A DNA stretch of 42,145 bases from Escherichia phage vB_EcoS-Ro145c2YLVW. A program made the translations under genes and the position numbers. Below, piece by piece: positions 505 to 41,490 of the stretch. The stretch lies in the sequence record NC_073322.1, one strand, 5' to 3'. The stretch's first letter is position 1; each line of letters starts with the position of its first letter. A model generated the notes under the pieces. The model made no database searches, was not told where the DNA came from, and worked only from the letters and a program-made list of their open reading frames with translations.

Positions 505-511
505 AATTTAC

Positions 512-540
512 TTGCACACTTGAATAGAATAGGCTACTAT
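512..540 (+). promoter_or_regulatory. sigma70-like promoter, conserved class A cassette (TTGCAC-17 nt-TACTAT)
   Basis: -35 TTGCAC, 17-nt spacer, -10 TACTAT; about 30 nt near-identical to cassettes at 10598-10626(-), 20344-20372(-), 41428-41456(+). Confidence 0.5.
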
Positions 541-570
541 TCATTTACACGAACGAGAGGAGAGACAGAG

Positions 571-3529: not shown

Positions 3530-3675
3530 AAATCACAGATATCGAAGCATTCAAAGACGCACAACTGATGGCACGCATCGCCGTCAATAACCTGAGCAGC
3601 AATATCCCGGCTGACGCGTTCTGGGCCGCCGCGATGCGGGTACTGAAAGCAGCTTATGTAGGAGAGAAGAAATGA
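3526..3675 (+). CDS. tiny ORF (49 aa)
   Basis: ATG overlapping upstream stop; AGGAG upstream; stop overlaps next ATG. Confidence 0.3.
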
Positions 3676-3842
3676 GCGAAGAAATTAGAGAACGAAGTAA
3701 AGTACTTCTACCGTTGTGGGTGGGATATAAAGTCGGCCACACCCCGTTCCCAACACGTGAGGAACTGATGAAACGTAACAGTTTCCCGGGGCCGGACAAG
3801 AACAAGTATCTCAATCGCATGTGGGGAGAGCGTAAAGAATGA
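3672..3842 (+). CDS. tiny ORF (56 aa)
   Basis: ATGA overlap with both neighbours; chains into track ORF 3839..4084. Confidence 0.3.
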   Translation: MSEEIRERSKVLLPLWVGYKVGHTPFPTREELMKRNSFPGPDKNKYLNRMWGERKE

Positions 3843-4084
3843 CTGACCGTGAATACGAAAAGATGATGGTAGAGGCGGTTAACGGCGGCGTAGACATCGG
3901 TCACGTGATGCACGTCCTGAATACTAAAATCGCGGTAGCGGAGCAAATGGTTGAGTCGCTTTATGAGACCCGCCGCGAACTGATTAACCGCTTCAACCTG
4001 AACAAGTGCGAACATGAGTTCGACTACAATCCGAAGGATATGTGCGGGCAGTGTATTAAATGCGGGGTACAGCGTCATGCCTAA
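3839..4084 (+). CDS. hypothetical protein with C-terminal zinc-ribbon (CxxC-x-CxxC)
   Basis: Track ORF; ATG start; CGQCIKCG motif. Confidence 0.5.
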   Translation: MTDREYEKMMVEAVNGGVDIGHVMHVLNTKIAVAEQMVESLYETRRELINRFNLNKCEHEFDYNPKDMCGQCIKCGVQRHA

Positions 4085-4612: not shown

Positions 4613-4893
4613 TGGCACGTACCGTTGCCGCGAGATTCACTGATATTGAATCTGCGATAGAAGAAGCTGTTTATAATAAATTCTGCAACCCCTCTGCTAC
4701 GCACAACTACGGAGTTATTGTTAAATACGGCAAGTTTGAAATTAGGAGAGTTCGCACCGGTCGCCCGCACGAGTTTTTATGGACAACAGAAAGCCTAGTC
4801 CCGCGGTGCCACATTTACACAAGCGGCGCACATACGATTTTTGTAGACCTTAACAAGAAAGATATTACCGTCACTAAAGGAGAGACAAATTGA
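4612..4893 (+). CDS. hypothetical protein
   Basis: Track ORF, ATG start. Confidence 0.5.
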   Translation: MARTVAARFTDIESAIEEAVYNKFCNPSATHNYGVIVKYGKFEIRRVRTGRPHEFLWTTESLVPRCHIYTSGAHTIFVDLNKKDITVTKGETN

Positions 4894-5126
4894 TTACCAG
4901 CATTCCTAAACTGATTGAAGAGTACGGAAGTATGTCGGAGACCTGCCGACAAACCGGTATCTGCGAAATGACGATTGCCAAGTACAGCAAAGACGTGAAC
5001 TGCGAGCGCCACGTAATTTATAACAACCGTCTGATGACGCACGTTAAGACAAGCCCGGTGTTATTCACGCGCCGCGGTATCACTAAAACTGAGCAACGTA
5101 TTGCTAAAGAGGAGAGTGGGGGATGA
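4890..5126 (+). CDS. hypothetical protein, possible HTH
   Basis: TTG start after AAAGGAGAGACAA leader; coupled to neighbours. Confidence 0.45.
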   Translation: MITSIPKLIEEYGSMSETCRQTGICEMTIAKYSKDVNCERHVIYNNRLMTHVKTSPVLFTRRGITKTEQRIAKEESGG

Positions 5127-6070: not shown

Positions 6071-7317
6071 GTATTCAGCTATCCGCCCCTCAGGCGCTGT
6101 TTCTTAATTGCGATAACAAATACAAAGCCTACGTCGGCGGCTTCGGCAGCGGCAAAACATTTGTTGGCTGCCTAGACCTGCTTACGTTTATGCTTAAGCA
6201 TCCCGGTACACGCCTTGGCTACTTTGGACCAACATATCCGGCTATCCGAGACATCTTCTATCCGACATTCGAGGAAGCGGCTAACCTGCTAGGCCTCGAT
6301 GTGCTTGTTAAATCTGGGGACAAAGAGGTAGTGGTTACCCGTGGTAAGACAGTGCTCGGGACAGTTATCTGCCGGTCGATGGATAACCCAGGCTCGATAG
6401 TCGGCTTCAAAATCGCGGCTGCGGTCGTGGATGAGCTCGATGTATTGAGTCGCGAGAAAGCTGAGCTGGCGTGGAACAAAATCGTAGCCCGTATGCGTCT
6501 GGTCATCCCGGGCGTAATCAACCACATCTCCGTAACCACGACACCGGAAGGATTCAAGTTCGTCTACGCCAAGTTCAAAGAGAACCCGACGCCGAGCTAC
6601 TCTATGGTGCAGGCATCAACTCATGAGAACGCCAGATTCCTGCCGCCGGATTATATTAGCTCGCTGACAGAGACTTACCCGGCGCAGTTGATTAACGCAT
6701 ATCTTAACGGTGAGTTCGTCAACCTGACATCCGGCAGCGTGTATTACGCATACGACCGCCGTAAGCATCGCAGCAAAGAGACAATTCAGCCTGGCGACAC
6801 GCTGTACATCGGGCAGGACTTCAACGTTACGAAGAATGCCAGCGCCGTGTATGTGCAACGTAAAGACGGCTGGCACGCGGTAGCGGAACTGAAAGGACTG
6901 TTCGATACGCCGGACACCGTGCGCGTAATTACTGAGAAGTGGAAGTCACAAGGCCACCGCATCGTCGTTTACCCTGACGCCAGCGGCAAGAACCGCAAGA
7001 CCAACTCGGCGTCAATCTCTGATATTGCATTACTCCAGCAGGCCGGGTTCGATGTGCGGGCTAAATCAGCCAACCCGCCGGTTAAGGACCGTGTTTTAGC
7101 CGTGAATACCGCGCTGGAAAAAGGTAAGCTGTGGGTTAACGACCACTTATGCCCCGAGATAGCCAAGACGCTGGAGCAACAGGCATATGACGATAACGGA
7201 GAGCCAGCTAAAGACGGCATCATTGACCATATGGCAGATGCGCTCGGCTATCCTGTAGTTTACGAGATGCCAGTGGTTAAACCAGTAATCAACATCCCGG
7301 TGACTTTCGCACTTTAA
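6067..7317 (+). CDS. terminase large subunit
   Basis: Walker A GGFGSGKT near N-terminus, about 416 aa, followed by portal gene. Confidence 0.9.
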   Translation: MSIQLSAPQALFLNCDNKYKAYVGGFGSGKTFVGCLDLLTFMLKHPGTRLGYFGPTYPAIRDIFYPTFEEAANLLGLDVLVKSGDKEVVVTRGKTVLGTVICRSMDNPGSIVGFKIAAAVVDELDVLSREKAELAWNKIVARMRLVIPGVINHISVTTTPEGFKFVYAKFKENPTPSYSMVQASTHENARFLPPDYISSLTETYPAQLINAYLNGEFVNLTSGSVYYAYDRRKHRSKETIQPGDTLYIGQDFNVTKNASAVYVQRKDGWHAVAELKGLFDTPDTVRVITEKWKSQGHRIVVYPDASGKNRKTNSASISDIALLQQAGFDVRAKSANPPVKDRVLAVNTALEKGKLWVNDHLCPEIAKTLEQQAYDDNGEPAKDGIIDHMADALGYPVVYEMPVVKPVINIPVTFAL

Positions 7318-7329
7318 GAGGATTATTCA

Positions 7330-8805
7330 ATGTTAACTATGAACGGTCAGAATCAGGGTGTTAAGACGAAACACCAGGAATGGCTGCATCACTTCGATAA
7401 ATGGCAGAAGGTACGTCACGCACTGGAAGGCGACCTTATTCGCTATCTGCGCAACGTCGGGAAGAACGAGCCTGACCCGACCTACGCGGCACAGCGCCAG
7501 GAAGAATATGAGAACGGCGCTATCTGCTACAACTTCACTAAACGTACCCTGGCGGGGATGGTCGGCAGTGTCATGCGCAAAGACCCTGAGCAGATTATCC
7601 CCCCTGAACTTGAGTACCTGTTACGCAATGCTGATGGTTCCGGTGTCGGGCTGTGGCAGCACGCACAGGATACTTTGATGGAGATTGACTCGGTGGGCCG
7701 TGGCGGGCTGCTGGTGGACGCCCCTGAGACAGCTGCGGCAACGGCAGCAGAACAGAACGCAGGATTATTAAACCCGGTCATTGCATTCTACACCACGGAG
7801 AACATCATCAACTGGCGACTGACACGCGTCGGTTCAGTCAACCGTGTGACTATGGTCGTGCTGCGTGAGGTATGGGAATACTCAGAACCGGGGGCAGAGT
7901 TTGAAACCAAGTTCGGTGAACAGTTCCGCGTCCTCGACCTGATTGATGGTCGTTACCGCCAACGCATCTATCGCTTCGATGTCGAAGGCGGCGCTCAGGA
8001 CGAAGTAATCGAAATATTCCCGGAACTCGGCGAACAGTTACGTGGCAAAATCCCGTTCACGTTTATTGGCGCAAGCAACAACGACGCCACTATCGACGAT
8101 GCGCCTTTGCTGCCGTTGGCCGAGCTAAACATAGGACACTTCAGAAATTCGGCTGATGTGGAAGAGGCCAGCTTTATAGTAGGCCAGCCCACTCTGTTCA
8201 TCGCCCCCGGCGATAATATGAGCATGGAGCAATGGAAAGAAGCCAACCCCCACGGCATCCGCATGGGGTCGCGTTCTGGTCACAACATTGGCTACGGCGG
8301 CACTGCGTTTCTGGTTCAGGCGGCGGAAACTAACCTCGCCAAACAGAACATGCTGGATAAAGAGAATCAGGCCATCCAGATTGGCGCACAGCTTATTACC
8401 CCGACGCAACAAATCACCGCTGAATCGGCCCGCCTGCAACGAGGTGCGGATACGTCCGTTATGGCGACAATCGCACGCAACGTAAGCATGGCGTACACCG
8501 ATGCGCTACGCTGGGTAGCTGCGATGCTTGGGCTTCGTGAGGATACTGAGATTGAGTTCAAGCTGAATATGGAGTTCTTCCTGCAACCGATGACCGCCCA
8601 GGACCGTGCTCAGTGGATGGCCGACATCAACGCCGGTCTGTTACCAGCTACCGCTTACTACGCGGCATTGCGCAAGGCGGGTGTAACTGACTGGACAGAT
8701 GAGGATATTCAGAACGCTATTGAAGACGCGCCGCTGCCGGTTTTTACACAGACTACCGGGGAAATTCCGGCTACAGCACAGCAGGATGAAGAGGCGCAGC
8801 AATGA
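7330..8805 (+). CDS. portal protein
   Basis: 491-aa protein directly after terminase large subunit; AAGAGGA SD before ATG 7330. Confidence 0.8.
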   Translation: MLTMNGQNQGVKTKHQEWLHHFDKWQKVRHALEGDLIRYLRNVGKNEPDPTYAAQRQEEYENGAICYNFTKRTLAGMVGSVMRKDPEQIIPPELEYLLRNADGSGVGLWQHAQDTLMEIDSVGRGGLLVDAPETAAATAAEQNAGLLNPVIAFYTTENIINWRLTRVGSVNRVTMVVLREVWEYSEPGAEFETKFGEQFRVLDLIDGRYRQRIYRFDVEGGAQDEVIEIFPELGEQLRGKIPFTFIGASNNDATIDDAPLLPLAELNIGHFRNSADVEEASFIVGQPTLFIAPGDNMSMEQWKEANPHGIRMGSRSGHNIGYGGTAFLVQAAETNLAKQNMLDKENQAIQIGAQLITPTQQITAESARLQRGADTSVMATIARNVSMAYTDALRWVAAMLGLREDTEIEFKLNMEFFLQPMTAQDRAQWMADINAGLLPATAYYAALRKAGVTDWTDEDIQNAIEDAPLPVFTQTTGEIPATAQQDEEAQQ

Positions 8806-10318: not shown

Positions 10319-10321
10319 TAA

Positions 10322-10348
10322 AAGGCCCCATTATGGGGCCTTAGTTTT
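10322..10348. terminator. bidirectional hairpin terminator
   Basis: AAGGCCCCA-TTA-TGGGGCCTT stem-loop followed by AGTTTT; sits between convergent genes. Confidence 0.6.
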
Positions 10349-10571
10349 AAACTTCCACGTCTATCACCAAATCATCAGGCATGGTTATGACTATTTTATC
10401 GTTTTCATAGAACGGGCTAAGAGGCTCATTTTCAGGCTGCAAACGTAAAGTTAGCTTTTTATCACCAAAATAATCTATGTAACGAACCCAGTACCACTCG
10501 TCGAATACCTGTACCTTTTCTCCGGGGCGTACATCTCTAGCCTTCTTTTGATTCGTAAATCTAATCGGCAT
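10347..10571 (-). CDS. hypothetical protein (74 aa), antisense moron
   Basis: ATG with AGGAGG SD; driven by class A promoter at 10598-10626; ends at the bidirectional terminator. Confidence 0.55.
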   Translation of the reverse strand: MPIRFTNQKKARDVRPGEKVQVFDEWYWVRYIDYFGDKKLTLRLQPENEPLSPFYENDKIVITMPDDLVIDVEV

Positions 10572-10597
10572 AAATACCTCCTGTTTAAGTTAACTGA

Positions 10598-10626
10598 ATA
10601 GTACCCTACTATATTGGGGTGTGCAA
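10598..10626 (-). promoter_or_regulatory. sigma70-like promoter, class A cassette
   Basis: Minus strand TTGCAC-17 nt-TACTAT; near-identical to cassettes at 512, 20344, 41428. Confidence 0.5.
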
Positions 10627-10692
10627 ACTATTTGTTTATGTATTCCAGTTATTCCGCTCAATTGTAAATGTTGGAATAAACTATTCGAATAG

Positions 10693-10721
10693 TTGACTTT
10701 TCACTGAAAATGTGCTAAGCT
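10693..10721 (+). promoter_or_regulatory. promoter with extended -10 (TTGACT-17 nt-TGcTAAGCT)
   Basis: -35 TTGACT 10693-10698, TG motif then TAAGCT 10716-10721; preceded by GGAATA-type repeats. Confidence 0.4.
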
Positions 10722-10728
10722 CCACCTG

Positions 10729-10929
10729 AGCTTGTGAAGTATGAACAAGCGACCGCGGCGCGGGCAGGTAACGGAGCGGGACGTAAGTCCTGAGTGTAGT
10801 TACGCTGACGCGTTCGGAAGGGCCATACTCTATTGCTTGTGTAAAAAGTAACGGGTTTACTGAGATTACGCCGTTTCTATGTTTAAATGATAAGGCCTAG
10901 CGCCCCGCTTTATGGCGGGGCTTTACTTA
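10729..10929 (+). ncRNA. candidate small RNA or structured leader upstream of spanins
   Basis: About 200 nt between a promoter and a GC-rich hairpin (GCCCCGC-TTTATG-GCGGGGC plus T-rich tail); no ORF over 10 codons; internal hairpin GCTTGT-N9-ACAAGC. Confidence 0.3.
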
Positions 10930-10945
10930 TCGAGAAAGGGGAAAC

Positions 10946-11332
10946 ATGAATCTTAAAGCAACTGTCATGGCAGGAGCATGTTTCATCATCCTGGTTTACG
11001 CACACGGCATCTACCAGTATCGCAGCGGCTGGAACGAGGGCCGGGCGAATCTCATTTCGCAGCAACAGCAGAAAGCACAAGCTGAGTTAGCGAAGAAAAC
11101 ACAACGGCAGCAGCAGGATGAATCAAAGGCCGCGGCCGCTGACAACGAAGGCAAGACGAAATCAGAGGTGATTACCCGTGAAGTCGTTAAGTACATTAAA
11201 ACGCCTGGTCGCAGCGTGTGCACTTTCGACCCTGAGCGCGTGCAGCTCAAGTCCCGCGCCGTCGCAAACGCCAATTCCATCCCCGGATACGACGATGATG
11301 CAGCCGCCGTGCAAACTGGCACCGCCAAGTAG
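10946..11332 (+). CDS. i-spanin (Rz-like)
   Basis: N-terminal membrane helix then charged Q/K/E-rich coiled-coil region; o-spanin-like gene embedded in +1 frame. Confidence 0.6.
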   Translation: MNLKATVMAGACFIILVYAHGIYQYRSGWNEGRANLISQQQQKAQAELAKKTQRQQQDESKAAAADNEGKTKSEVITREVVKYIKTPGRSVCTFDPERVQLKSRAVANANSIPGYDDDAAAVQTGTAK

Positions 11333-11441
11333 CGACGCTGACGAGGATTTGGCTGTCGACGTTCAGAACGCCGAATGCGCACGGCAATTGCGCCTGAAAG
11401 TGTTCATGTTGCAGGATTACGTGAGGAATATTCTGGAATAG
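11178..11441 (+). CDS. o-spanin (Rz1-like lipoprotein)
   Basis: Signal peptide with lipobox LSAC, proline-rich mature region; starts inside Rz-like gene and extends past its stop. Confidence 0.6.
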   Translation: MKSLSTLKRLVAACALSTLSACSSSPAPSQTPIPSPDTTMMQPPCKLAPPSSDADEDLAVDVQNAECARQLRLKVFMLQDYVRNILE

Positions 11442-11475
11442 TTGCCTTGCATGTTGGAATAATTTATTCTTGACA
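11420..11475 (+). promoter_or_regulatory. operator-like GGAATA repeat region with -35-like TTGACA
   Basis: GAATATTC and GAATAATTTATTC palindromes plus 12-mer ATGTTGGAATAA shared with 10664-10675; TTGACA at 11470 with no clear -10. Confidence 0.3.
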
Positions 11476-11523
11476 TGTAAATCCGGGTGGCCCGGGTTCC
11501 AACGTCCAGGGGACATACTGACT

Positions 11524-12225
11524 ATGAATCGTTTTTTACGTTATCCGTTCCAGGAAGAAGCTGGGGCAGAAGATAAATCCGCCGGCGGTGACGCGCCGAA
11601 AATGTTCACCGCTGAAGAAGTTCAGGCGCTGATTGAGAAAGAAGTTGCCGGGCTTAAGGCCAATCAGGAAGCATTGCTGGCGGAGAAGAAAGAAGCTGCC
11701 CGTAAAGCAAGAGAGGCTGAAGAAGAACGGCAGCGCGCACACCAGGAGGCATTAAAAGCCGCCGGTAAGATGGACGAGTTCGAAAAGACGATTCGTAGCC
11801 AGTATGACCCGGTGTTAGCAGAGAAAGATGGTCGCATCACCAAAATGGCTGAGCGCATCCTCGGCAGCGAACGTAAAGCGGTGTTAGGCTCTTTCGCTGG
11901 TGACTTTATTACCCCGGAAGCAGTAGACATTCTTGCGTCGTTCGTTATGACTGGGTTCGAAGGCGATGATGTTGTTACTAAGTTTGTTGGCGCAGACGGT
12001 AACGTAATCACGACTGACCCGGAACAGTTCCGCAAATACCTGCGCGAACACAAAGCGTTTTCGCATTTGATTAAAGCAAATGCAGCTTCCGGCGGCGGGG
12101 CTTCCGGTGGCAAAGGCGGCGGGGCCGCACCAGCGTTTAAAGACATGAGTGAAGCGGAGCGTTTAGCTCTGTATAAATCGAACCCTGCCGAATTTGAACG
12201 GCAACTTAAAGCCCTGAGGAAATAA
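11524..12225 (+). CDS. scaffolding protein (putative)
   Basis: Coiled-coil, Ala/Glu/Lys-rich 234-aa protein directly upstream of major capsid gene. Confidence 0.55.
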   Translation: MNRFLRYPFQEEAGAEDKSAGGDAPKMFTAEEVQALIEKEVAGLKANQEALLAEKKEAARKAREAEEERQRAHQEALKAAGKMDEFEKTIRSQYDPVLAEKDGRITKMAERILGSERKAVLGSFAGDFITPEAVDILASFVMTGFEGDDVVTKFVGADGNVITTDPEQFRKYLREHKAFSHLIKANAASGGGASGGKGGGAAPAFKDMSEAERLALYKSNPAEFERQLKALRK

Positions 12226-12227
12226 TA

Positions 12228-13277
12228 ATGGCAATTACCACTATCGGCGATATCGTAACTGGCAACATCCCGGTCCTGGCGTCTTATATGACCGAGGATC
12301 CGGTAGAAAAAACCGCGTTCTTCCAGTCCGGTATTCTGACCCCGACTCCGTACGCTGCCGAGATTGCTCGTGGCCCGTCCAATATCGCTAATATTCCTTT
12401 CTGGAAAGCGATTGATACCTCTATCGAGCCTAACTACTCGAACGATGTGTATCAGGACATCGCTACCCCGCGTAATGTGCAAACCGGTGAGATGATGGCC
12501 CGCGTTGCGTACCTGAACGAAGGTTTTGGTCAGGCGGACCTGACTGTTGAACTTACCAGCCAGAATCCGCTGCAATCCGTGGCGTCCCGTCTGGATAACT
12601 TCTGGCAGCGCCAGGCGCAACGCCGTCTGATTGCTACCGCGCTCGGCCTGTACAACGACAACGTAGCCGCTACCGATGCTTACCACGAGCAGAATGACAT
12701 GGTAATCGACGTGTCCGCTACTCTGGGCTTCGACTCCGGCGCGTTCATCGACGCTACCCAGACTATGGGTGATGCTCTGATGGGCAACGGCGGTGAAGTG
12801 TTGGGTGCTATCGCGATGCACAGCTTCGTTTATGCGCAGGCGCGTAAGCAGCAGCTTATCGACTTCATTCGTGATGCTGACAACAACACCATGTTTGCCA
12901 CCTACCAGGGCTACCGTGTGATTGTTGACGACAGCATGACCGTAGTCGGTACCGGCCCGAGCCGTAAGTTCATCTCCATCATCTTTGGCAATGGCGCTAT
13001 CGGTTACGGCGAAGGCTCCCCGGCCAATCCGCTGGCCTACGAGCGCGAAGAATCCCGCGGCAACGGCGGTGGCGTTGAAACCCTGTGGACCCGTAAGACC
13101 TGGTTGCTGCATCCACTGGGCTACAGCTTCACCAGCACAGTAATCACCGGTAACGGCACCGAGACTGTCGCACGTTCTGCTTCCTGGCAGGACCTGGCGA
13201 ACGCCTCCAACTGGAACCGTGTGGTTGAGCGTAAGCATGTACCGATTGCCTTCCTGGTAACTGGTGTCGGGGCTTAA
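12228..13277 (+). CDS. major capsid protein
   Basis: 349-aa protein following scaffold, followed by strong terminator; position and size typical. Confidence 0.8.
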   Translation: MAITTIGDIVTGNIPVLASYMTEDPVEKTAFFQSGILTPTPYAAEIARGPSNIANIPFWKAIDTSIEPNYSNDVYQDIATPRNVQTGEMMARVAYLNEGFGQADLTVELTSQNPLQSVASRLDNFWQRQAQRRLIATALGLYNDNVAATDAYHEQNDMVIDVSATLGFDSGAFIDATQTMGDALMGNGGEVLGAIAMHSFVYAQARKQQLIDFIRDADNNTMFATYQGYRVIVDDSMTVVGTGPSRKFISIIFGNGAIGYGEGSPANPLAYEREESRGNGGGVETLWTRKTWLLHPLGYSFTSTVITGNGTETVARSASWQDLANASNWNRVVERKHVPIAFLVTGVGA

Positions 13278-17709: not shown

Positions 17710-18204
17710 CTATTTACCGTGGTTCTCGTGGAACCCCAAATCTCTTTCAGCAACTCTCCTCGCGGCAACTGCATCTAGTATCGTCTTAAAGCACCCGATA
17801 TGTGTTTTTACGTTATTGTTGAATATCTGCGCGTACCACAACCTTTCTTTCGCGTTCCAGTAGACTCCGGTTACTCCTGATTTATTATTACGCTGTTTTG
17901 ACATATTTTTATGGTTTTCCGCATTGGACTTTTTAGCTAAGTTAAGCGGTCTATTGTTTATTCGGTCATGGTCTAGATGGTCTATTTGATCTGACGAGGT
18001 TAGCTTATTGTTAGGATTGTTTAAGTCCCAAGCTATACGGTGCGCCGCATGCCATTTACCCCGGAAAAATATCCTTCTATATCCGTCTCGCTGGACGGTA
18101 CCTGCTTCCTCTCCAGCCTTAGCCCTCCCGGACCGGGTTACTCTGTTAAATATCCTTCCTGAAATTAAGTCGTATATGAAAAATTCATTCCAATCCATAA
18201 TCAT
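17710..18204 (-). CDS. HNH homing endonuclease with AP2-type DNA-binding domain
   Basis: HNH-type motifs (YRRIFFRGKWHAAHRIAW, IDHLDHDRINN) and C-terminal GVTGVYW...W segment. Confidence 0.8.
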   Translation of the reverse strand: MIMDWNEFFIYDLISGRIFNRVTRSGRAKAGEEAGTVQRDGYRRIFFRGKWHAAHRIAWDLNNPNNKLTSSDQIDHLDHDRINNRPLNLAKKSNAENHKNMSKQRNNKSGVTGVYWNAKERLWYAQIFNNNVKTHIGCFKTILDAVAARRVAERDLGFHENHGK

Positions 18205-18485: not shown

Positions 18486-18956
18486 CTACTCATGGTTTTC
18501 ATGAAAACCGTATTTACTCTCGGCGGCTTTACGCGCGGCAACCGCTACATCAAAATCGTCGTAAAGCCCTAAATGCACTTGTTTGTAGTTAACTTTTATA
18601 AACGCGCGCCACTTACCCGCGGCTTTGTGGAAACTTACACCTGTAGCCCCGGATTTATTTATCTTTCTCATAGTTTTATTTTTACTGTCCCCTGTATTGT
18701 CGGTGGCGCGTAGATTTTCTATTCTATTGTCTAGCCTGTTATGGTTTATGTGGTCTATTTGAGTTTTCCTGTCTAAGTCGCATTTATTATAAAGACACCA
18801 TGCTATGCGGTGGACATACACTGTTTTACCACCCATACCGCAGCACAGATAGCCTCTTACACCAACCGTACCAACCTCAGCACCAGTAGATATCCTGGTA
18901 ACCTGCCCCGTCTCAGGGCAGTATTTAAATTGTTTTGAAACATCAAGATACTTCAT
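18486..18956 (-). CDS. HNH homing endonuclease with AP2-type domain (paralog)
   Basis: VYVHRIAW, IDHINHNRLDN and GATGVSF...W motifs; paralogous to 17710..18204. Confidence 0.8.
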   Translation of the reverse strand: MKYLDVSKQFKYCPETGQVTRISTGAEVGTVGVRGYLCCGMGGKTVYVHRIAWCLYNKCDLDRKTQIDHINHNRLDNRIENLRATDNTGDSKNKTMRKINKSGATGVSFHKAAGKWRAFIKVNYKQVHLGLYDDFDVAVAARKAAESKYGFHENHE

Positions 18957-20313: not shown

Positions 20314-20343
20314 TTTAAACCCCTTCATTGTTGGTGTAAGTGA

Positions 20344-20372
20344 ATAGTACCCTATTATATTGGGGTGTGCAA
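20344..20372 (-). promoter_or_regulatory. sigma70-like promoter, class A cassette
   Basis: Minus strand TTGCAC-17 nt-TACTAT; 30/32 identical to cassette at 10598-10626. Confidence 0.5.
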
Positions 20373-20480
20373 GTAATGTGATAGAATAATTTTGCGCCTA
20401 GTGTCGCACACGAAAAGCGGGTGGTTCCCGTCTGGCGCATTTATCGATAACCTGTAACCTCTTAACCAAAGGATTAAAGA

Positions 20481-24900: not shown

Positions 24901-25217
24901 TATTACACTACACCCGTAACGAAGACGGTACTTTCGACCGCAAACGGTACAACGTACCGCCGATGGAATACGTCGTTGCTAACATCCCTGACGGGGTGCC
25001 GGTACGTATTTACCGGGGCGAGATTGGCGAGGATACGGAAGTAACGGAAGATTTCGAAGCGCTGAAAGAAGACGACGTATTCCATATTATCGAAGGTGCT
25101 GGTGGCGGTGGCGGTGTTCTCGGAAAACTGCTTGACCCATTGGGTGTGCTTAAGTTTATCACTAAACTGATTTCCCCGTCGCAGACAACGCCTAAAACTA
25201 GTGTAGCTAACCAGTAA
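24891..25217 (+). CDS. tail assembly protein (lambda I-like position)
   Basis: Small protein with poly-Gly linker; C-terminal 17 codons repeated at N-terminus of next gene. Confidence 0.5.
   Translation: MALILHYTRNEDGTFDRKRYNVPPMEYVVANIPDGVPVRIYRGEIGEDTEVTEDFEALKEDDVFHIIEGAGGGGGVLGKLLDPLGVLKFITKLISPSQTTPKTSVANQ
25164..25214 (+). repeat. 51-bp direct repeat, copy 1
   Basis: AAACTGATTTCCCCGTCGCAGACAACGCCTAAAACTAGTGTAGCTAACCAG; 49/51 identical to 25278-25328. Confidence 0.8.
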
Positions 25218-25259
25218 TCCGGAGGGGGTTGTGTAGGGAAAGAGCGTAAACCTTGGGGG

Positions 25260-27560
25260 GTGCCGAAGTATTTCAAAAAACTGATTTCCCCGTCGCAGAA
25301 AACGCCTAAAACTAGTTTAGCTAACCAGCAGGCGGAGTCGCCAAACAACAACCTGACGGACCGAAACAATAAACCTCGCCCGTATGAGCGGTCGTATGAT
25401 ATTTGCGGCAGGGTACAGACTATCCCTAATGACCTCATGACTACCTATAAAATATTCGATGAATCCGGCCGAATTATCGAGTATGGATACTACGACGCCG
25501 GTCGAGGTTACCTGGATATCAAAGCAGAAGACATTACTGACGGCGATACTAAAGTACAGGAGATTACAGGTACATCTGTCGCGGTGTATGCGCCGTTTAC
25601 ATCGCCTAACAATACAAATACTCCTCAGCTTCTGGTGGGGGAACCTATCAATCAGAATCTTTATATAACTATCGCTTCTAATGAAGTAGACGGAGCCGTT
25701 CTTAAAGCCCGTAACGATATAAGGGTTAACCCTAGCGACACGGGCCGTGTGAGATATGACTCTGCTACAAAAATTGGATACCTGTATGATGGCACGGGGG
25801 ATTCTGGCTTCGCGGAAATATTATCTGTTGGCGATACCGCGTCGTTCAATAACTTTGACGTTCCGGACGTAACAAATACCAACGGCAACTTTCGTGTTCT
25901 TTATGTCGATAACTTCGAGCTGCGGGTCGACACCGGCGGCGCGTCTAACTGGGCTGCTTTAGGTTCAACCACCTATTCACTTTCCCCGAGAAGTGACACG
26001 TGGGTGGGCCCTGTGAATACGTATGAAAGAACATTAACCGACTGGACCACCTTAAACCGCCTGGAAGTTGAACGAGTAGTTGCTAACATTGCCGCCGCGA
26101 ATGGCATGTACAAGGACAACGGCAGTAAATTGCGCACCGCTGTAACTGTAGAGCTTCAATATCAGCTACTAGATGAATCCGGGGCACCGTACGGAAGCAT
26201 TTACTCGAAACAGGCCACTATATCCGGGCGGTCCGCAGATTACACCGGGGTCACCATTTACGCCGACCTGCCCGTGCGGTCGAAAGTCAGGGTACGCGCC
26301 CGGCGTGTTACCAACCTGGACCTCGATTTCGAGGGCACCGTGGTAGACGAGGTTTCCTACATCAACCTTTACGGGCAGGTCCGCGACACTACGCCGCATT
26401 ACGGCAACCGTACTACTGTACACTCTGCACGTAAGCCGACGCCGCGGGCCGCAGAGATTAAGCAGCCGCAGCTACGTATGGTCGCGACGGAGATGGTGTA
26501 CAAATACCTCGGCAACGGCGTATTTGACGCGGTTATGACACCTAATACCCAAGCCGTTCAGTCGTTAATACGCCTGGCGCGGGACCCAGTAGTAGGAAAC
26601 CTCAATCTCACCACGGCTAACATGGATAAGTTGTTGGCTACGCAAGCAGAGATTGAAAATTATTTCGGAAATGCTGAGGCTGGGCAGTTCTGCTACACAT
26701 TCGATGATTACAAAACGACTATGCAGGACATCATCAGCACAATAGCTGATGCTATTTTCTGCACGCCATATCGTAAAGGGCAAGACATATTACTGGATTT
26801 CGAGCGCCCTCGTATGGGGCCGGAGATGGTATTCACCCACCGCAGTAAAACAACGGCATCCGAGAGGTGGACTAGGACATTCAACGACGCTCAGGTATAC
26901 GATAGTCTTAAGTTCTCCTACATCGACCCAGATACCAACGTAAAAGAGACTATTAGCATTCCAGCCGAAGGTGGTGTTAATACCGAAACGTATGACTCCA
27001 AGGGTATACGTAATTATCGCCAGGCGTACTGGGCGGCGTACCGCCGCTACCAGAAAAACCTGTTGAAGAAGGTAACGGTATCATTCACGGCGACAGAAGA
27101 AGGGATTTTTGCAATGCCTGGGCGTGCGGTAAGTGTGGTAAAAGGTTCGCGTATGGCTCCACAAGACGGCTATGTAATCGCCGTTAACGGGCTTACGCTT
27201 ACTCTTTCTCGGCCGGTCGCGTTTACTCCTGGGGATGACCACTCACTGATTCTTAAGAAGCGAGACGGGGGAGTTCAAAGTGTTGCCGTTGTGCCTGGAA
27301 GCCACGACCGTGAAGTGGTTATGCTATCCGCGCCGCAGGAGGCAATTTACACGGGGAATAGCGCACTAAAAACTGAGTTTTCATTCGGCAACGAAGCAAG
27401 GCATAATGCTCAGATGATTCTTGTTTCTACAGTTGACCCCGGAGATGACAGAACAGTTAAGATTACCGGGATTAACTATGAAGCAGATTTCTATAAATAC
27501 GACGGCGTCGCGCCTTTCGGTCGCGGTTTCTCCGACGGATTCAGCAACGGTTTTAGTTAA
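25260..27560 (+). CDS. central tail fiber / tail tip protein (J-like, putative)
   Basis: 766-aa protein downstream of tail-tip assembly genes; GTG start after CTTGGGGGG. Confidence 0.65.
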   Translation: MPKYFKKLISPSQKTPKTSLANQQAESPNNNLTDRNNKPRPYERSYDICGRVQTIPNDLMTTYKIFDESGRIIEYGYYDAGRGYLDIKAEDITDGDTKVQEITGTSVAVYAPFTSPNNTNTPQLLVGEPINQNLYITIASNEVDGAVLKARNDIRVNPSDTGRVRYDSATKIGYLYDGTGDSGFAEILSVGDTASFNNFDVPDVTNTNGNFRVLYVDNFELRVDTGGASNWAALGSTTYSLSPRSDTWVGPVNTYERTLTDWTTLNRLEVERVVANIAAANGMYKDNGSKLRTAVTVELQYQLLDESGAPYGSIYSKQATISGRSADYTGVTIYADLPVRSKVRVRARRVTNLDLDFEGTVVDEVSYINLYGQVRDTTPHYGNRTTVHSARKPTPRAAEIKQPQLRMVATEMVYKYLGNGVFDAVMTPNTQAVQSLIRLARDPVVGNLNLTTANMDKLLATQAEIENYFGNAEAGQFCYTFDDYKTTMQDIISTIADAIFCTPYRKGQDILLDFERPRMGPEMVFTHRSKTTASERWTRTFNDAQVYDSLKFSYIDPDTNVKETISIPAEGGVNTETYDSKGIRNYRQAYWAAYRRYQKNLLKKVTVSFTATEEGIFAMPGRAVSVVKGSRMAPQDGYVIAVNGLTLTLSRPVAFTPGDDHSLILKKRDGGVQSVAVVPGSHDREVVMLSAPQEAIYTGNSALKTEFSFGNEARHNAQMILVSTVDPGDDRTVKITGINYEADFYKYDGVAPFGRGFSDGFSNGFS
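25278..25328 (+). repeat. 51-bp direct repeat, copy 2
   Basis: AAACTGATTTCCCCGTCGCAGAAAACGCCTAAAACTAGTTTAGCTAACCAG. Confidence 0.8.
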
Positions 27561-32088: not shown

Positions 32089-32120
32089 TTCTCAATTCCT
32101 TATATTGTTGGTGTGTGTGG

Positions 32121-32405
32121 TTAACTATAATAGTTCACTATTAGGTCGTCAACCTCTTCTTTTGTTCCTACTACAAAAACATTTGCGCCACGTTTACGAA
32201 GCCGTTTGTGCTCCCGCAACTGATGGTCCTCCGGTTCCGTGTTTTCATCCTTCTTCACCTCTACAAACCATATCACTCCTCCTGGAAGGGCGACTAACAG
32301 GTCAGGCGCTCCGTTTCTACCCTCGTACGACAGCTTACGAACGAGGCCGCCAATAGCCTCGAATCGGTCTTTTGCGTATTTCTGTATTTTGCCTTCCGGG
32401 GTCAT
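32121..32405 (-). CDS. VRR-NUC domain nuclease
   Basis: PDLLVALPGGVIWFVEVKKD matches PD-(D/E)xK VRR-NUC core; start set to ATG 32405. Confidence 0.6.
   Translation of the reverse strand: MTPEGKIQKYAKDRFEAIGGLVRKLSYEGRNGAPDLLVALPGGVIWFVEVKKDENTEPEDHQLREHKRLRKRGANVFVVGTKEEVDDLIVNYYS
32124..32152 (-). promoter_or_regulatory. sigma70-like promoter, class B (TTGACG-17 nt-TATAGT)
   Basis: Spacer contains AATAGT...CTATTATAGTT core shared with promoters at 35700 and 37970. Confidence 0.45.
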
Positions 32406-35646: not shown

Positions 35647-35699
35647 TTGATTTCTCGCTTTTAAGTTTACTCCGGGAAGCTGCCCGGCCAGTGATTAGA

Positions 35700-35729
35700 A
35701 CTATAATAGCTAACTATTCAGGTGTCAAC
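35700..35729 (-). promoter_or_regulatory. sigma70-like promoter, class B (TTGACA-18 nt-TATAGT)
   Basis: Consensus -35; conserved AATAGT...CTATTATAGTT spacer core. Confidence 0.5.
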
Positions 35730-37938: not shown

Positions 37939-37969
37939 TTGTTTCTCTCCTCTCGTTTGGTATGGGCTA

Positions 37970-37999
37970 ACTATAATAGCTGACTATTCATGATGTCAA
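37970..37999 (-). promoter_or_regulatory. sigma70-like promoter, class B (TTGACA-18 nt-TATAGT)
   Basis: Consensus -35, conserved spacer core; divergent from XRE gene. Confidence 0.5.
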
Positions 38000-38063
38000 T
38001 GGGCTTTTCTAAAATAATTAATATGGTACTATTCACATATCAACTGACTAAGGAGTGATTAAC

Positions 38064-41364: not shown

Positions 41365-41427
41365 ACCAAGTAATAAGAATAAAGGCACATCCCTACCTGA
41401 AGAATCACAACGGCAACGAATCTTTGC

Positions 41428-41456
41428 TTGCATACCCCAATATAATAGGCTACTAT
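41428..41456 (+). promoter_or_regulatory. sigma70-like promoter, class A cassette (TTGCAT-17 nt-TACTAT)
   Basis: Near-identical to cassettes at 512, 10598, 20344. Confidence 0.5.
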
Positions 41457-41490
41457 TCACTTATCGAAACGAGACAGAGGGGTGAGGGTT

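What the first reader, a model, noticed from the sequence alone, without database searches (positions are those of the whole stretch)
10640..11475. Two homologous GGAATA-repeat operator-like regions in front of two late promoters
Upstream of the -35 elements at 10693 and 11470 there are clusters of GGAATA / TATTCC half-sites, including palindromes GAATAaacTATTC, GAATATTC and GAATAATTTATTC, plus the shared 12-mer ATGTTGGAATAA (10664-10675 and 11451-11462). The 11470 promoter lacks a recognisable -10, which fits activator dependence. This looks like binding-site architecture for a dedicated, unidentified transcription factor coordinating the spanin unit and the scaffold-capsid unit.
Basis: seen in the sequence. 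Interest (0 to 1): 0.5.

Follow-up and report, generated by a model that had tools for sequence, protein, structure and literature searches.

The report
Conserved operator module at two promoters
The two GGAATA-repeat clusters in this E. coli phage are real, conserved sites of the kind that bind a regulatory protein; they sit on two internal promoters, one for a structured leader RNA plus the spanin lysis genes and one for the scaffold and capsid genes, and this is an ordinary kind of element whose binding protein is still unknown.

Summary
The window is Escherichia phage vB_EcoS-Ro145clw (Kagunavirus, Guernseyvirinae). The GGAATA/TATTCC clusters exist as described; one coordinate is 4 nt off. 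They are the only two such clusters in the genome (0 of 1000 simulations give two).

Across six Guernseyvirinae lineages they resolve into 15-bp units (6-N3-6). The units are paired about 32 bp apart and stay conserved while linkers and flanks diverge. In one lineage the whole module is inverted, yet keeps its spacing and its distance to the -35.

- **Site A** lies 4-6 nt upstream of a conserved extended -10 promoter. That promoter drives a ~200-nt structured, non-coding leader ending in a terminator hairpin, not the spanin gene directly.
- **Site B:** The conserved promoter is TTGCCT(11442)-17-TATTCT(11465). One unit abuts its -35 and an invariant palindrome contains its -10.

The best reading is operator sites for a phage-encoded dimeric DNA-binding protein. 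The sign of regulation is unresolved. By phyletic pattern the leading candidate is a NinH-like protein (4890-5126); the two annotated early HTH proteins fit poorly. Nothing is experimentally shown. This is a new member of a known kind, of moderate interest.

The parts
10320..10349 (.). Bidirectional intrinsic terminator (GGCCCCattatGGGGCC with U-rich tails on both strands). It closes the upstream head-gene transcription unit and the leftward moron ORF, so a new promoter is needed downstream.
   Evidence: the equivalent terminator is annotated in vB_SenS-Ent1
10641..10655 (.). Site A, distal 15-bp unit: direct doublet TATTCC-agt-TATTCC.
   Evidence: Identical in type 1, type 2, pink and phiEap-2 although the flanks differ. 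It is kept whether or not the leftward moron and its promoter are present.
10656..10672 (.). 17-nt linker between the two units of site A. It contains a block, TGTAAAT (10663-10669), conserved in types 1 and 2.
   Evidence: The linker is exactly 17 nt in type 1, type 2, pink/phiEap-2 and the inverted TS33 module, while its sequence diverges.
10673..10687 (.). Site A, proximal 15-bp unit: palindrome GGAATA-aac-TATTCg. It overlaps a second small palindrome, TATTCGAATA (10682-10691).
   Evidence: It is a perfect GGAATAaatTATTCC in pink and phiEap-2 and GGAATAattTATTCC in TS33.
10693..10721 (+). Promoter PA: -35 TTGACT (10693-10698), 17-nt spacer, extended -10 TGcTAAGCT (10713-10721). Inferred start near 10728.
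   Evidence: Position and layout are conserved with sequence change: TAGACT/TGtTACGCT in type 2, TGGACT/TGaTAACCT in pink and phiEap-2, TTTACT/TGaTAACCT in TS33. The simple scan missed it because the -10 matches only 3 of 6. The start site is inferred, not measured.
10728..10930 (+). About 200-nt structured non-coding leader RNA, ending in the terminator hairpin GCGCCCCGC-tttat-GGCGGGGC (10900-10921) plus a U-rich tail, 15 nt before the spanin start codon.
   Evidence: Terminator. MFE -71.2 kcal/mol, z = -1.9. RNAalifold: 9 of 32 pairs with compensatory changes. The 36-aa ORF at 10741-10851 is broken by 1-nt indels in L004, L019, L027 and L028 and is absent in type 2. No Rfam family matches. 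95-98% identical in 173 phage records.
10946..11441 (+). Spanin genes: Rz (10946-11332) and embedded/overlapping Rz1 (11295-11441).
11425..11440 (.). Site B, upstream unit: GGAATA-ttct-GGAATA. It overlaps the last six codons of Rz1 (R N I L E stop).
   Evidence: Third-codon-position variation is 0 of 6 codons here against 22 of 24 in the preceding codons. Only the -35-proximal hexamer is kept where the region is non-coding (Cornellvirus, TS33); pink and phiEap-2 have tGAATAaatTATTCC instead.
11442..11470 (+). Promoter PB: -35 TTGCCT (11442-11447), 17-nt spacer, -10 TATTCT (11465-11470). Inferred start near 11477.
   Evidence: Conserved at the same spacing in all seven lineages, with replacements TTGCAA (pink, phiEap-2), TTGCTT (TS33) and TTGCCC/TATATT (Otaku). 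The conserved hairpin always starts 9-12 nt after the -10.
11456..11470 (.). Site B, downstream 15-bp unit: palindrome GGAATA-att-TATTCT, covering the spacer and the -10 of PB.
   Evidence: The 17-nt block GGAATAATTTATTCTTG is invariant, except one G>T in L042, across four lineages. TS33 has AGAATAattTATTCT. Otaku has none.
11470..11475 (+). Most likely part of the start-site region of PB, not a -35.
   Evidence: It is TTGTTA in type 2 and pink and absent in Otaku. No -10-like hexamer follows in any lineage; the GC-rich hairpin lies there.
11480..11498 (+). 5'-proximal stem-loop of the PB transcript (AAUCCGGG-ugg-CCCGGGUU).
   Evidence: The core CCGGG/CCCGG is invariant; the outer pairs co-vary (AAU/GUU, ACA/UGU, AG/CU). 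It is annotated as a 'putative rho-independent terminator' in vB_SenS-Ent1 although it has no U tract.
11504..11526 (+). Invariant ribosome-binding region GUCCAGGGGAC (a 4-bp mini-hairpin over the Shine-Dalgarno sequence) and the scaffold start codon at 11524.
4890..5126 (+). NinH-like HTH protein (78 aa), the leading candidate for the factor that binds the units. Candidate only.
   Evidence: Pfam Phage_NinH E = 7.5e-6, 26.2 bits, below the 29.8 cut-off. About 30% identical to lambda NinH. Present at 59-66% identity in all six unit-bearing lineages and not detectable in Otaku.
3672..4084 (+). Two further small proteins with the same phyletic pattern: hyp56 (3672-3842) and hyp81 (3839-4084, Cys4 C-terminus). 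Secondary candidates.
   Evidence: no family assignment

Best explanation
The GGAATA/TATTCC hexamers are half-sites of 15-bp recognition units (6-N3-6; palindrome GGAATA-N3-TATTCC or direct doublet). A sequence-specific dimeric DNA-binding protein would bind these units. The units come in pairs about three helical turns apart (32 bp centre to centre at site A, 30.5-33 bp at site B), so two dimers would sit on the same face of the DNA and bind cooperatively.

The module is placed on two host-sigma70 promoters inside the morphogenesis region.

- At PA it ends 4-6 nt upstream of the -35, with unit centres near -48 and -80. PA transcribes a structured ~200-nt leader and, by read-through of its terminator hairpin, the spanin genes.
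- At PB one unit abuts the -35 (centre about -44 to -47), the -35 lies in the linker, and the second, invariant unit contains the -10 (centre about -14). PB transcribes scaffold, capsid and the downstream structural genes.

I think the factor is phage-encoded, made from the rightward operon upstream of terS. The best candidate is the NinH-like HTH protein at 4890-5126. It would couple both promoters to its own accumulation, acting positively through the -35-adjacent unit. The -10-overlapping palindrome at PB would give a ceiling or negative component.

Shown: the sites, their organisation, their conservation and the promoter assignments by comparative sequence. Inferred: protein binding, the identity of the protein, the start sites and the sign of regulation.
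For: 1. Non-random. These are the only two hexamer clusters in this genome, in phage Jersey and in pink. The palindrome is the top 5-N3-5 palindrome in six genomes.
2. Footprint-like conservation. The units are identical or near-identical between lineages whose linkers, flanks and neighbouring proteins have diverged (spanin 62-67% identical).
3. Constraint independent of coding. There is no synonymous variation in the six Rz1 codons under the site-B doublet, against 22 of 24 variable codons upstream. The spacer sequence of PB is invariant across lineages, which core promoter function does not require.
4. Module behaviour. The linker is exactly 17 nt in four site-A lineages. In Hafnia phage TS33 the whole module is inverted (palindrome distal, GGAATAaaaGGAATA proximal) yet keeps the 17-nt linker and a 4-nt gap to the -35.
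5. The promoters are real by comparative criteria. Hexamers change but positions and 17-nt spacers are kept. Terminators lie upstream, and 5' hairpins start 2-4 nt after the inferred starts.
6. The lineages that lack units have better core elements at the same promoters: Otaku PB -10 TATATT, and Cornellvirus PA -10 TATAAT. This fits loss of a positive factor.
7. Phyletic profile. Among small proteins, only NinH-like, hyp81 and hyp56 are present in all six unit-bearing lineages and undetectable in Otaku. NinH-like is unusually conserved at 59-66%, against 35-48% for XRE.
8. Lambda NinH is a Fis-like dimer that prefers 15-bp pseudo-palindromes with a G-N13-C signature and loads a second dimer cooperatively (PMC7166090). 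The perfect units here are 15-mers of the form G-N13-C.
Against: - There is no binding, start-site or expression evidence for these sites. The one Kagunavirus RNA-seq paper has coarse timing and no promoter analysis.
- The most conserved unit overlaps the -10 of PB. This is a repressor-type position and is awkward for a purely positive regulator.
- Pink and phiEap-2 also carry a unit inside the PA spacer.
- The distal hexamer of the site-B doublet is not kept where the region is non-coding.
- The inner positions of the units (A-T at -4/-3) do not match the Y-R step of Fis/NinH sites.
- The residue equivalent to lambda NinH R30 in the recognition helix is Glu in all Guernseyvirinae NinH-like proteins.
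- The Pfam score is below threshold and NCBIfam gives nothing.
- A Klebsiella phage with a 52%-identical NinH-like protein has no GGAATA units.
- The phyletic argument rests on one negative lineage and is confounded by phylogeny and by host: Serratia versus Escherichia, Salmonella, Enterobacter and Hafnia.
- Much of the type-1 conservation may reflect recent recombination rather than independent retention.
Confidence: 0.5

Rival explanations
1. Pure repressor operators. The same units are bound by a repressor that occludes PB (the palindrome over the -10 and spacer, helped by the upstream unit) and damps PA by cooperative binding next to the -35. This would delay or cap structural-gene and spanin expression. 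No activation is involved.
For: The invariant site-B palindrome spans -21 to -7 of the conserved promoter. Pink and phiEap-2 have an extra unit within the PA spacer. Both promoters have recognisable sigma70 elements and could work unaided. The NanR hexamer-repeat operator is a precedent for cooperative repression.
Against: A fixed 4-6-nt distance from the module to the -35 of PA, kept even when the module is inverted, is not needed for repression. The lineages without units have stronger core promoters. A phage product that represses its own capsid promoter lacks an obvious rationale unless it acts early or transiently.
Confidence: 0.2
2. A host transcription factor of Escherichia, Salmonella and related hosts binds the units, rather than a phage protein. 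Candidates are Fis, a NanR-like GntR protein or RcsB. Structural-gene expression would then be tied to host physiology.
For: - The hexamer-N3-hexamer direct doublet (reverse complement GGAATAactGGAATA) resembles the NanR (GGTATA)n operator, where dimers bind hexamer repeats cooperatively (the exact nanA operator sequence is from my memory).
- The site-B doublet contains AGGAATATTCT, an 11-nt match to the RcsAB-box consensus as I recall it.
- The units are 15-bp G-N13-C elements with A/T-rich cores, like Fis sites.
- The only lineage without units infects Serratia.
Against: - The hexamer is GGAATA or a one-base variant of it, and never GGTATA, in about 50 sequences.
- The RcsAB-like stretch is not conserved in pink or Cornellvirus and is absent at site A.
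- The Y-R steps typical of Fis sites are missing.
- No similar DNA is found in 5,426 E. coli genomes at E <= 1.
- The units occur nowhere else in the phage.
Confidence: 0.12
3. One reading: an activator-dependent late promoter whose -35 is TTGACA at 11470 and which has no -10, with the palindrome abutting it as the activator site.
For: TTGACA is a perfect -35 and follows the palindrome directly, as TTGACT follows the site-A palindrome after 6 nt. The overall order doublet-linker-palindrome-TTGAC is the same at both sites.
Against: TTGACA is TTGTTA in type 2 and pink and absent in Otaku. No TAnnnT hexamer lies 16-19 nt downstream in any lineage; that position is occupied by the conserved GC-rich hairpin. 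Activators normally compensate for a weak -35, not for a missing -10. The alternative TTGCCT-17-TATTCT is conserved with compensating variants.
Confidence: 0.06
4. No dedicated binding protein. The similarity of A and B would be a relic of a promoter duplication or of insertion of the leader-spanin cassette between direct repeats. The conservation would reflect recombination sweeps, core-promoter or UP-element function, or RNA-level structure.
For: The spanin cassette sits oddly inside the head-gene cluster, flanked by the two homologous regions. Region A plus the leader is 95-98% identical among phages whose neighbouring genes are far more diverged, which suggests exchange. TATTCT is itself the -10 of PB.
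Against: The units are retained across lineages with diverged linkers. The module is inverted in TS33 with its geometry kept. Extra perfect units appear in pink and phiEap-2. Synonymous variation is suppressed. Spacer sequence is invariant. The palindromic RNA stems would be weak 5-bp A/U helices, and site A lies upstream of the start site.
Confidence: 0.08
5. A lambda PR'-like antitermination cassette. PA would be constitutive, the ~200-nt RNA would be the terminated product (like lambda 6S RNA), and the GGAATA units would load a Q-like factor; alternatively the leader itself would act like HK022 put RNA. Either way RNA polymerase would read through into the spanin and structural genes.
For: A promoter, a short structured RNA, an intrinsic terminator, and then lysis and head genes: this order mimics lambda PR'-6S-tR'-S R Rz. 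A -10-like repeat follows the -10 (TAAGCT..TGAGCT; TACGCTnnnTACGCT in type 2). NinH-like and a calcineurin-like phosphoesterase recall the lambda ninH-ninI-Q neighbourhood.
Against: No Q-like protein was found among about 40 small ORFs. The -10-like repeat is not conserved in pink or TS33. The same units occur at PB, where no terminator follows. There is no second copy of the leader in the genome.
Confidence: 0.04

Closest known systems
Lambdoid operator arrays (OR1-OR3 with cI at PRM/PR)
   Same: Several copies of a ~15-17-bp dyad unit spaced to allow cooperative dimer-dimer binding. One unit sits next to a -35 in an activating position and another overlaps core promoter elements in a repressing position. 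The same protein controls more than one promoter.
   Different: The half-site (GGAATA) and the unit spacing (32 bp rather than ~24 bp) differ. Units may be direct as well as inverted repeats. The setting is a virulent phage with no immunity function, and the sites lie in the morphogenesis region. The binding protein is not identified.
Phage Mu Mor and C, and other small phage activators bound just upstream of or over the -35 (from my own knowledge)
   Same: Small dimeric HTH proteins made earlier in infection that bind a dyad centred near -43 of middle or late promoters used by host sigma70 RNA polymerase.
   Different: Mu middle and late promoters lack a usable -35 and have a single dyad. Here both promoters keep -35 and -10 hexamers, the sites are bipartite, and one unit covers the -10. 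No Mor/C homologue was seen.
E. coli NanR and its (GGTATA)3 operator (PMC8012715)
   Same: Hexamer repeats separated by 2-3 nt, each bound by a dimer, with cooperative binding that needs at least two repeats and a fixed spacing. The hexamer differs by one base (GGTATA versus GGAATA).
   Different: The hexamer identity is not met. The phage units include inverted repeats. The NanR operator lies downstream of the RNA-polymerase site. No sialic-acid link is shown.
Lambda NinH / E. coli Fis binding sites (PMC7166090)
   Same: 15-bp pseudo-palindromes of the form G-N13-C with A/T-rich cores. [quoted passage not shown] A NinH-family gene co-occurs with the units.
   Different: The inner Y-R steps are not matched. 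The recognition-helix arginine of lambda NinH is glutamate in these phages. The biological role of lambda NinH is unknown, and no binding has been tested here.
Lambda late promoter cassette PR'-6S RNA-tR'
   Same: A promoter followed by a ~200-nt RNA ending in an intrinsic terminator, directly upstream of lysis and then head genes.
   Different: No Q homologue was found and there is no conserved pause-inducing element. The leader here is highly structured and conserved in sequence.

Membership tests
sigma70 promoter (PA, 10693-10721) | -35-like hexamer, 16-18-nt spacer, -10 TAnnnT (here with an extended TGn) | tested here: met
   TTGACT-17-TGcTAAGCT. The layout is kept with different hexamers in four lineages. 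It fell below the simple scanner's threshold because the -10 matches only 3 of 6.
sigma70 promoter (PA and PB) | Mapped transcription start | not testable with these tools
   No 5'-end data are available. The starts near 10728 and 11477 are inferred from the hexamers and the 5' hairpins.
sigma70 promoter (PB, 11442-11470) | -35-like hexamer, 17-nt spacer, -10 TAnnnT, conserved in position | tested here: met
   TTGCCT-17-TATTCT, with variants TTGCAA, TTGCTT and TTGCCC/TATATT at the same spacing in seven lineages.
   No TAnnnT at the right distance in any lineage. TTGACA is replaced by TTGTTA or is absent.
Intrinsic terminator (10900-10930) | GC-rich stem-loop followed by a U-rich tract | tested here: met
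   8-bp stem, 7 GC pairs, tail TTTACTTATC. The stem co-varies (CG>GC and GC>AU). The U tract is weak in type 2. Termination efficiency was not measured.
Transcription-factor operator | Repeated recognition unit with dyad or direct symmetry at fixed spacing, conserved beyond its surroundings | tested here: met
Transcription-factor operator | Specific binding by a protein | not testable with these tools
   Needs EMSA, footprinting or ChIP.
Fis/NinH-type site | 15-bp core with G at -7 and C at +7 (G-N13-C) | tested here: inconclusive
   Met by the perfect units in pink, phiEap-2 and TS33 (GGAATAnnnTATTCC). In this window +7 is G (site A) or T (site B). The signature is from PMC7166090.
Fis/NinH-type site | Pyrimidine-purine step at -4/-3 (and +3/+4) | tested here: not met
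   The units have A-T at -4/-3.
Phage_NinH protein family (PF06322), for the ORF at 4890-5126 | Score at or above Pfam's gathering threshold | tested here: not met
   26.2 bits against 29.8 and no NCBIfam hit. However, it aligns with lambda NinH over the HTH at about 30% identity, and homologues are named 'NinH family protein' in RefSeq records.
NanR operator | At least two GGTATA hexamers in direct repeat with short fixed spacers | tested here: not met
   The arrangement is similar (hexamer-N3-hexamer), but the hexamer is never GGTATA in about 50 sequences.
Lambda Q-type antitermination cassette | A Q-family protein encoded by the phage | tested here: not met
   PHROGs and Pfam on about 40 small ORFs found none. 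Distant homologues could be missed.
Lambda Q-type antitermination cassette | -10-like pause element in the initially transcribed region, conserved among relatives | tested here: inconclusive
   TGAGCT follows TAAGCT and TACGCT is repeated in type 2, but this is not seen in pink or TS33.
Any Rfam RNA family (leader 10728-10930 and the PB 5' region) | Covariance-model match at the gathering score | tested here: not met
   No match at gathering thresholds in the whole window. Only chance-level matches at E <= 10.

The most novel reading that the evidence does not exclude
NinH-family proteins have no known biological role, even in phage lambda. In Guernseyvirinae they might be dedicated regulators that switch on, and then limit, the structural-gene and spanin promoters, acting through paired 15-bp GGAATA-N3-TATTCC units. 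Separately, the conserved ~200-nt leader between PA and the spanin genes might be a new class of structured cis-regulatory RNA (an attenuator or antiterminator) that sets when the last step of lysis becomes possible.
Probability: 0.22. Interest if true: 0.55.

Novelty: new member of a known kind. Interest (0 to 1): 0.4.

Why it matters
Guernseyvirinae (Kagunavirus, Jerseyvirus, Cornellvirus and relatives) include hundreds of sequenced phages proposed for therapy and food safety. Their transcriptional programme is essentially unmapped.

- Published annotations place no promoter at either site.
- One annotation calls the PB 5' hairpin a terminator.
- Another calls an unrelated early-promoter repeat a 'phage RNA-polymerase promoter', although PHROGs and Pfam scans of the small ORFs found no sigma factor and the record annotates no phage RNA polymerase.

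This work supplies a defined 47-bp module, two promoter assignments and a short list of three candidate proteins. Together these make the control of capsid and spanin expression directly testable. The module would also be useful for engineering these phages, for example to time a payload. If the NinH-like protein is the factor, a widespread phage protein family would gain a function. In kind, however, this is a normal operator-promoter arrangement.

Tried and rejected
- **Rfam.** Searched at gathering and at permissive thresholds; nothing for the leader or the PB region.
- **15-mer scan of IMG/VR.** An exact scan for the site-A doublet returned mostly chance matches in unrelated contigs and was not used.
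- **Host homology.** No similar DNA in E. coli complete genomes.
- **ArgR, IHF, CRP, TyrR, MetR, IclR and Fur boxes.** Compared from memory and dropped for wrong spacing or wrong bases.
- **RcsAB box.** An 11-nt match within the site-B doublet, dropped because that stretch is not conserved in pink or Cornellvirus and is absent at site A.
- **NanR.** The architecture is similar but the hexamer identity fails.
- **HTH_17 (excisionase-like) protein and its neighbour hyp77.** Initially attractive, then excluded because VSiP, phiEap-2 and TS33 keep the units without them.
- **XRE protein.** Present in every lineage including Otaku, so it is not informative. It more likely serves the separate early-promoter palindromes.
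- **pac site or replication origin.** Not pursued. The location is between head genes, the units sit on promoters, and terS and the replication genes are elsewhere.
- **The 36-aa ORF in the leader.** Rejected as a gene because of frameshifts in relatives.
- **NinH-linked motif in a Klebsiella phage.** A search for a repeated 5-N3-5 palindrome found none.
- **Literature search.** One search was wasted on 'NinH' matching 'ninhydrin'.
Full report
**Identity and context**

The window is Escherichia phage vB_EcoS-Ro145clw (MG852086.2; Kagunavirus, Guernseyvirinae), matched at 100% identity. It is rotated relative to the record and carries one extra 114-nt tandem copy in a tail gene. The finding lies in the head-morphogenesis region. 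The order there is terminase, portal, head-morphogenesis protein, Hoc-like decoration protein (ends 10318), a bidirectional terminator (10320-10349), a small leftward ORF (10347-10571), the 374-nt intergenic region with site A, the spanin genes Rz/Rz1 (10946-11441), an 82-nt gap with site B, then scaffold (11524), major capsid and the other structural genes.

**Check of the observation**

The exception is the first copy of ATGTTGGAATAA, which is at 10668-10679, not 10664-10675.

- GGAATA/TATTCC occurs 28 times against 17.9 +/- 3.7 expected.
- The excess is concentrated. The only two places with at least 3 hexamers in 60 nt are 10641-10678 and 11425-11461.
- Random placement gives two such clusters with P = 2e-4. 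No first-order Markov simulation out of 1000 gave two.
- GGAATA-N3-TATTC occurs only at the two sites.
- Phage Jersey shows the same two sites as its only clusters. Phage pink has one cluster of at least 3 exact hexamers, at the equivalent of site A, and its site-B units show up in the palindrome scan.

**Comparative anatomy**

I collected 47 related loci from IMG/VR with the spanin protein. I added GenBank representatives of further lineages: a divergent Jerseyvirus 'pink', three Cornellviruses (VSiP, PhiSTP1, TS6), Enterobacter phage phiEap-2, Hafnia phage TS33 and Serratia phage Otaku.

The hexamers resolve into 15-bp units of the form 6-N3-6. A unit is either the palindrome GGAATA-N3-TATTC(C) or the direct doublet TATTCC-N3-TATTCC.

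At site A the two units are separated by exactly 17 nt in four lineages, giving 32 bp centre to centre, or three helical turns. This holds in Kagunavirus-type, Jersey-type and pink/phiEap-2-type sequences even though the linker sequence differs. In TS33 the whole module is inverted: GGAATAattTATTCC, then 17 nt, then GGAATAaaaGGAATA. It still ends 4 nt from the -35.

The doublet is retained whether or not the leftward ORF and its own promoter are present. It therefore belongs to the rightward promoter.

**Promoter at site A (PA)**

TTGACT(10693)-17 nt-TGcTAAGCT(10713-10721) is an extended -10 promoter. The same layout with other hexamers is found in the other lineages: TAGACT/TGtTACGCT, TGGACT/TGaTAACCT and TTTACT/TGaTAACCT. 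The simple scanner missed it because the -10 matches only 3 of 6.

What it transcribes is not the spanin gene directly. It transcribes about 200 nt of conserved non-coding sequence ending in a GC-rich hairpin with a U-rich tail (10900-10930), 15 nt before the Rz start codon.

- The 36-aa ORF annotated there in some relatives is broken by 1-nt indels in four loci and is missing in Jersey-type sequences.
- The RNA folds into a 5' hairpin and a long stem enclosing a GNRA-capped hairpin.
- RNAalifold finds compensatory changes in 9 of 32 pairs.
- No Rfam family matches.
- The region is 95-98% identical in 173 phage records, including Salmonella phages whose spanin is only about 75% identical.
- More diverged but recognisably related leaders precede the spanin gene in pink, Cornellvirus, TS33 and Otaku.

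**Promoter at site B (PB)**

It is TTGTTA in Jersey-type and pink and is absent in Otaku.

A different promoter is conserved: TTGCCT(11442)-17 nt-TATTCT(11465).

- The -35 becomes TTGCAA in pink and phiEap-2, TTGCTT in TS33 and TTGCCC in Otaku.
- The -10 becomes TATATT in Otaku.
- The spacer is always 17 nt.
- The promoter persists in Cornellvirus, where a leftward gene separates the spanins from the scaffold gene.
- A stem-loop starts 9-12 nt after the -10 in every lineage, which is 2-4 nt after the inferred start. Its core is invariant and its outer pairs co-vary: AAU/GUU, ACA/UGU, AG/CU. This is the usual arrangement of a 5' stabilising hairpin. One GenBank record calls it a terminator although it has no U tract.

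In this frame the invariant palindrome GGAATAattTATTCT (11456-11470) covers the spacer and the -10. The -35 lies in the linker. The upstream unit ends 1-4 nt before the -35.

The upstream unit overlaps the last six codons of Rz1. Those codons show no third-position variation in 43 distinct sequences, whereas 22 of the preceding 24 codons do (hypergeometric P about 5e-5, my calculation). Where the region is non-coding, only the -35-proximal hexamer is kept (Cornellvirus, TS33), or a different full unit, tGAATAaatTATTCC, is present (pink, phiEap-2).

**What it most likely is**

A bipartite, orientation-independent, spacing-constrained module of dyad or direct repeats, conserved against diverged surroundings and placed on two promoters, is the signature of operator sites for a dimeric DNA-binding protein that binds cooperatively.

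The sign of regulation cannot be settled from sequence.

Features that favour a positive role:
- the fixed 1-6-nt distance of a unit to the -35 at both promoters, kept even when the module is inverted;
- the weak and variable core hexamers;
- the better core elements in the lineages that lack units (Otaku PB TATATT; Cornellvirus PA TATAAT).

Features that favour a negative role:
- the most conserved unit contains the -10 of PB;
- pink and phiEap-2 carry an extra unit in the PA spacer.

I therefore commit to a dual arrangement. Activation would come from the -35-adjacent unit and limitation from the -10 unit, as at lambda PRM. A pure repressor is the main rival.

**Which protein**

PHROGs, Pfam and NCBIfam on about 40 small ORFs find three DNA-binding candidates and no Q-like or sigma-like protein. 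The candidates are an XRE protein, an excisionase-like HTH_17 protein and a NinH-like protein.

I ran a local tblastn profile over seven lineages. It shows the following.

- HTH_17 and its neighbour are missing from VSiP, phiEap-2 and TS33, all of which keep the units.
- XRE is present everywhere, including Otaku, which has no units.
- Only the NinH-like protein (4890-5126; 59-66% identical) and two adjacent small proteins are present in all six unit-bearing lineages and undetectable in Otaku. The two are hyp56 (3672-3842) and the Cys4 protein hyp81 (3839-4084).

Lambda NinH is a Fis-like homodimer that bends DNA, prefers 15-bp G-N13-C pseudo-palindromes and loads a second dimer cooperatively (PMC7166090). 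The perfect units here are 15-mers of that form.

Against this candidate:
- the inner Y-R steps are not matched;
- a recognition-helix arginine of lambda NinH is glutamate in these proteins;
- the Pfam score is sub-threshold;
- a Klebsiella phage with a 52%-identical homologue has no GGAATA units;
- the profile rests on a single negative lineage, which also differs in host.

The assignment is a lead, not a result.

**Literature**

I found no description of these sites.

- Genome papers on fBC-Eco01 and Golestan report PHIRE 'phage promoters' with the consensus tgAATAGTa-ccTATTat-T. That is a different repeat, a sigma70-type early promoter family.
- The Jersey and Ent1 records annotate no promoter at PA or PB.
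- A temporal RNA-seq study of a Kagunavirus exists but has no start-site or intergenic analysis. It places NinH and capsid in the same broad 'middle' class.

**Verdict**

It is wrong in its promoter assignment for site B and in what site A drives. The element is a new member of a known kind. The most interesting open points are the identity of the factor and the function of the conserved spanin leader RNA.

Noticed in passing
window 10728-10930: A conserved ~200-nt structured non-coding RNA lies between promoter PA and the spanin start codon and ends in a terminator hairpin. It shows compensatory base changes and a GNRA-capped hairpin, matches no Rfam family, and is 95-98% identical in 173 phage records. 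Some records annotate it as a hypothetical protein. Its function is unknown; it could be an attenuator, an antiterminator, a stabiliser or a trans-acting RNA.
   Followed up: partly
window 508-554 (+), 41424-41463 (+), 10591-10626 (-), 20337-20376 (-), 38019-38039: A separate repeat family, TTGCAY-N17-TACTAT, with an embedded palindrome AATAGTAnnnTACTATT. These look like strong sigma70 early promoters with an operator. It is the motif that a published genome paper (PMC9825357) reported as 'phage RNA polymerase' promoters, although PHROGs and Pfam scans of the small ORFs found no sigma factor and the record annotates no phage RNA polymerase. One copy drives the leftward ORF next to site A.
   Followed up: partly
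window 10347-10571 (-): A 74-aa leftward ORF of unknown function (phrog_8705) with its own early-type promoter. It is present in only some Kagunaviruses. In others a different cassette, or just a terminator, occupies the spot. It behaves like a moron inserted between the head genes and site A.
   Followed up: partly
window 25106-25328: A tandem repeat of 114-nt period inside the large tail protein gene. The window carries one more copy than the GenBank record MG852086.2, which accounts for the length difference (42145 versus 42031).
   Followed up: no
window 32119-32142, 35695-35718, 37965-37988: A third repeat family (GGYTAACTATAATAGYTNACTATT) containing a perfect TATAAT, in the replication-gene region. 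These are probably promoters of the leftward early/middle operons.
   Followed up: no
window 17950-17989 and 18723-18762: Two 40-nt copies (80% identical) of TCTATTGTTTATTCGGTCATGGTCTAGATGGTCTATTTGA, with internal GGTCTA repeats, 773 nt apart between the tail genes and the leftward HNH/phosphoesterase block. Function unknown.
   Followed up: no
window 11504-11514: GUCCAGGGGAC, invariant in all lineages, can form a 4-bp hairpin that encloses the scaffold gene's Shine-Dalgarno sequence. This could be a translational control point.
   Followed up: no
L177 (pink) 12529-12543; L185 (phiEap-2) 11501-11537 and 5576: Pink and phiEap-2 carry extra perfect GGAATA units outside PA and PB. One set lies at the end of the Hoc-like/extra head genes, next to a terminator and a leftward small gene. 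In phiEap-2 a doublet also lies between the NinH-like gene and terS. phiEap-2 has 43 hexamers in all.
   Followed up: partly
window 29481-29504: GGAGTAacaGGAGTAaatTATTGC is a triple of a related hexamer with the same 6-N3-6 spacing, inside the 3' end of the tail-fibre gene. It is probably chance.
   Followed up: no
L186 (lambda 43040-44509) versus window: In lambda, ninH is followed by ninI (a calcineurin-like Ser/Thr phosphatase) and Q. This phage also encodes a NinH-like protein and a calcineurin-like phosphoesterase (record 7024-8154), but far apart and with no Q homologue detected.
   Followed up: no
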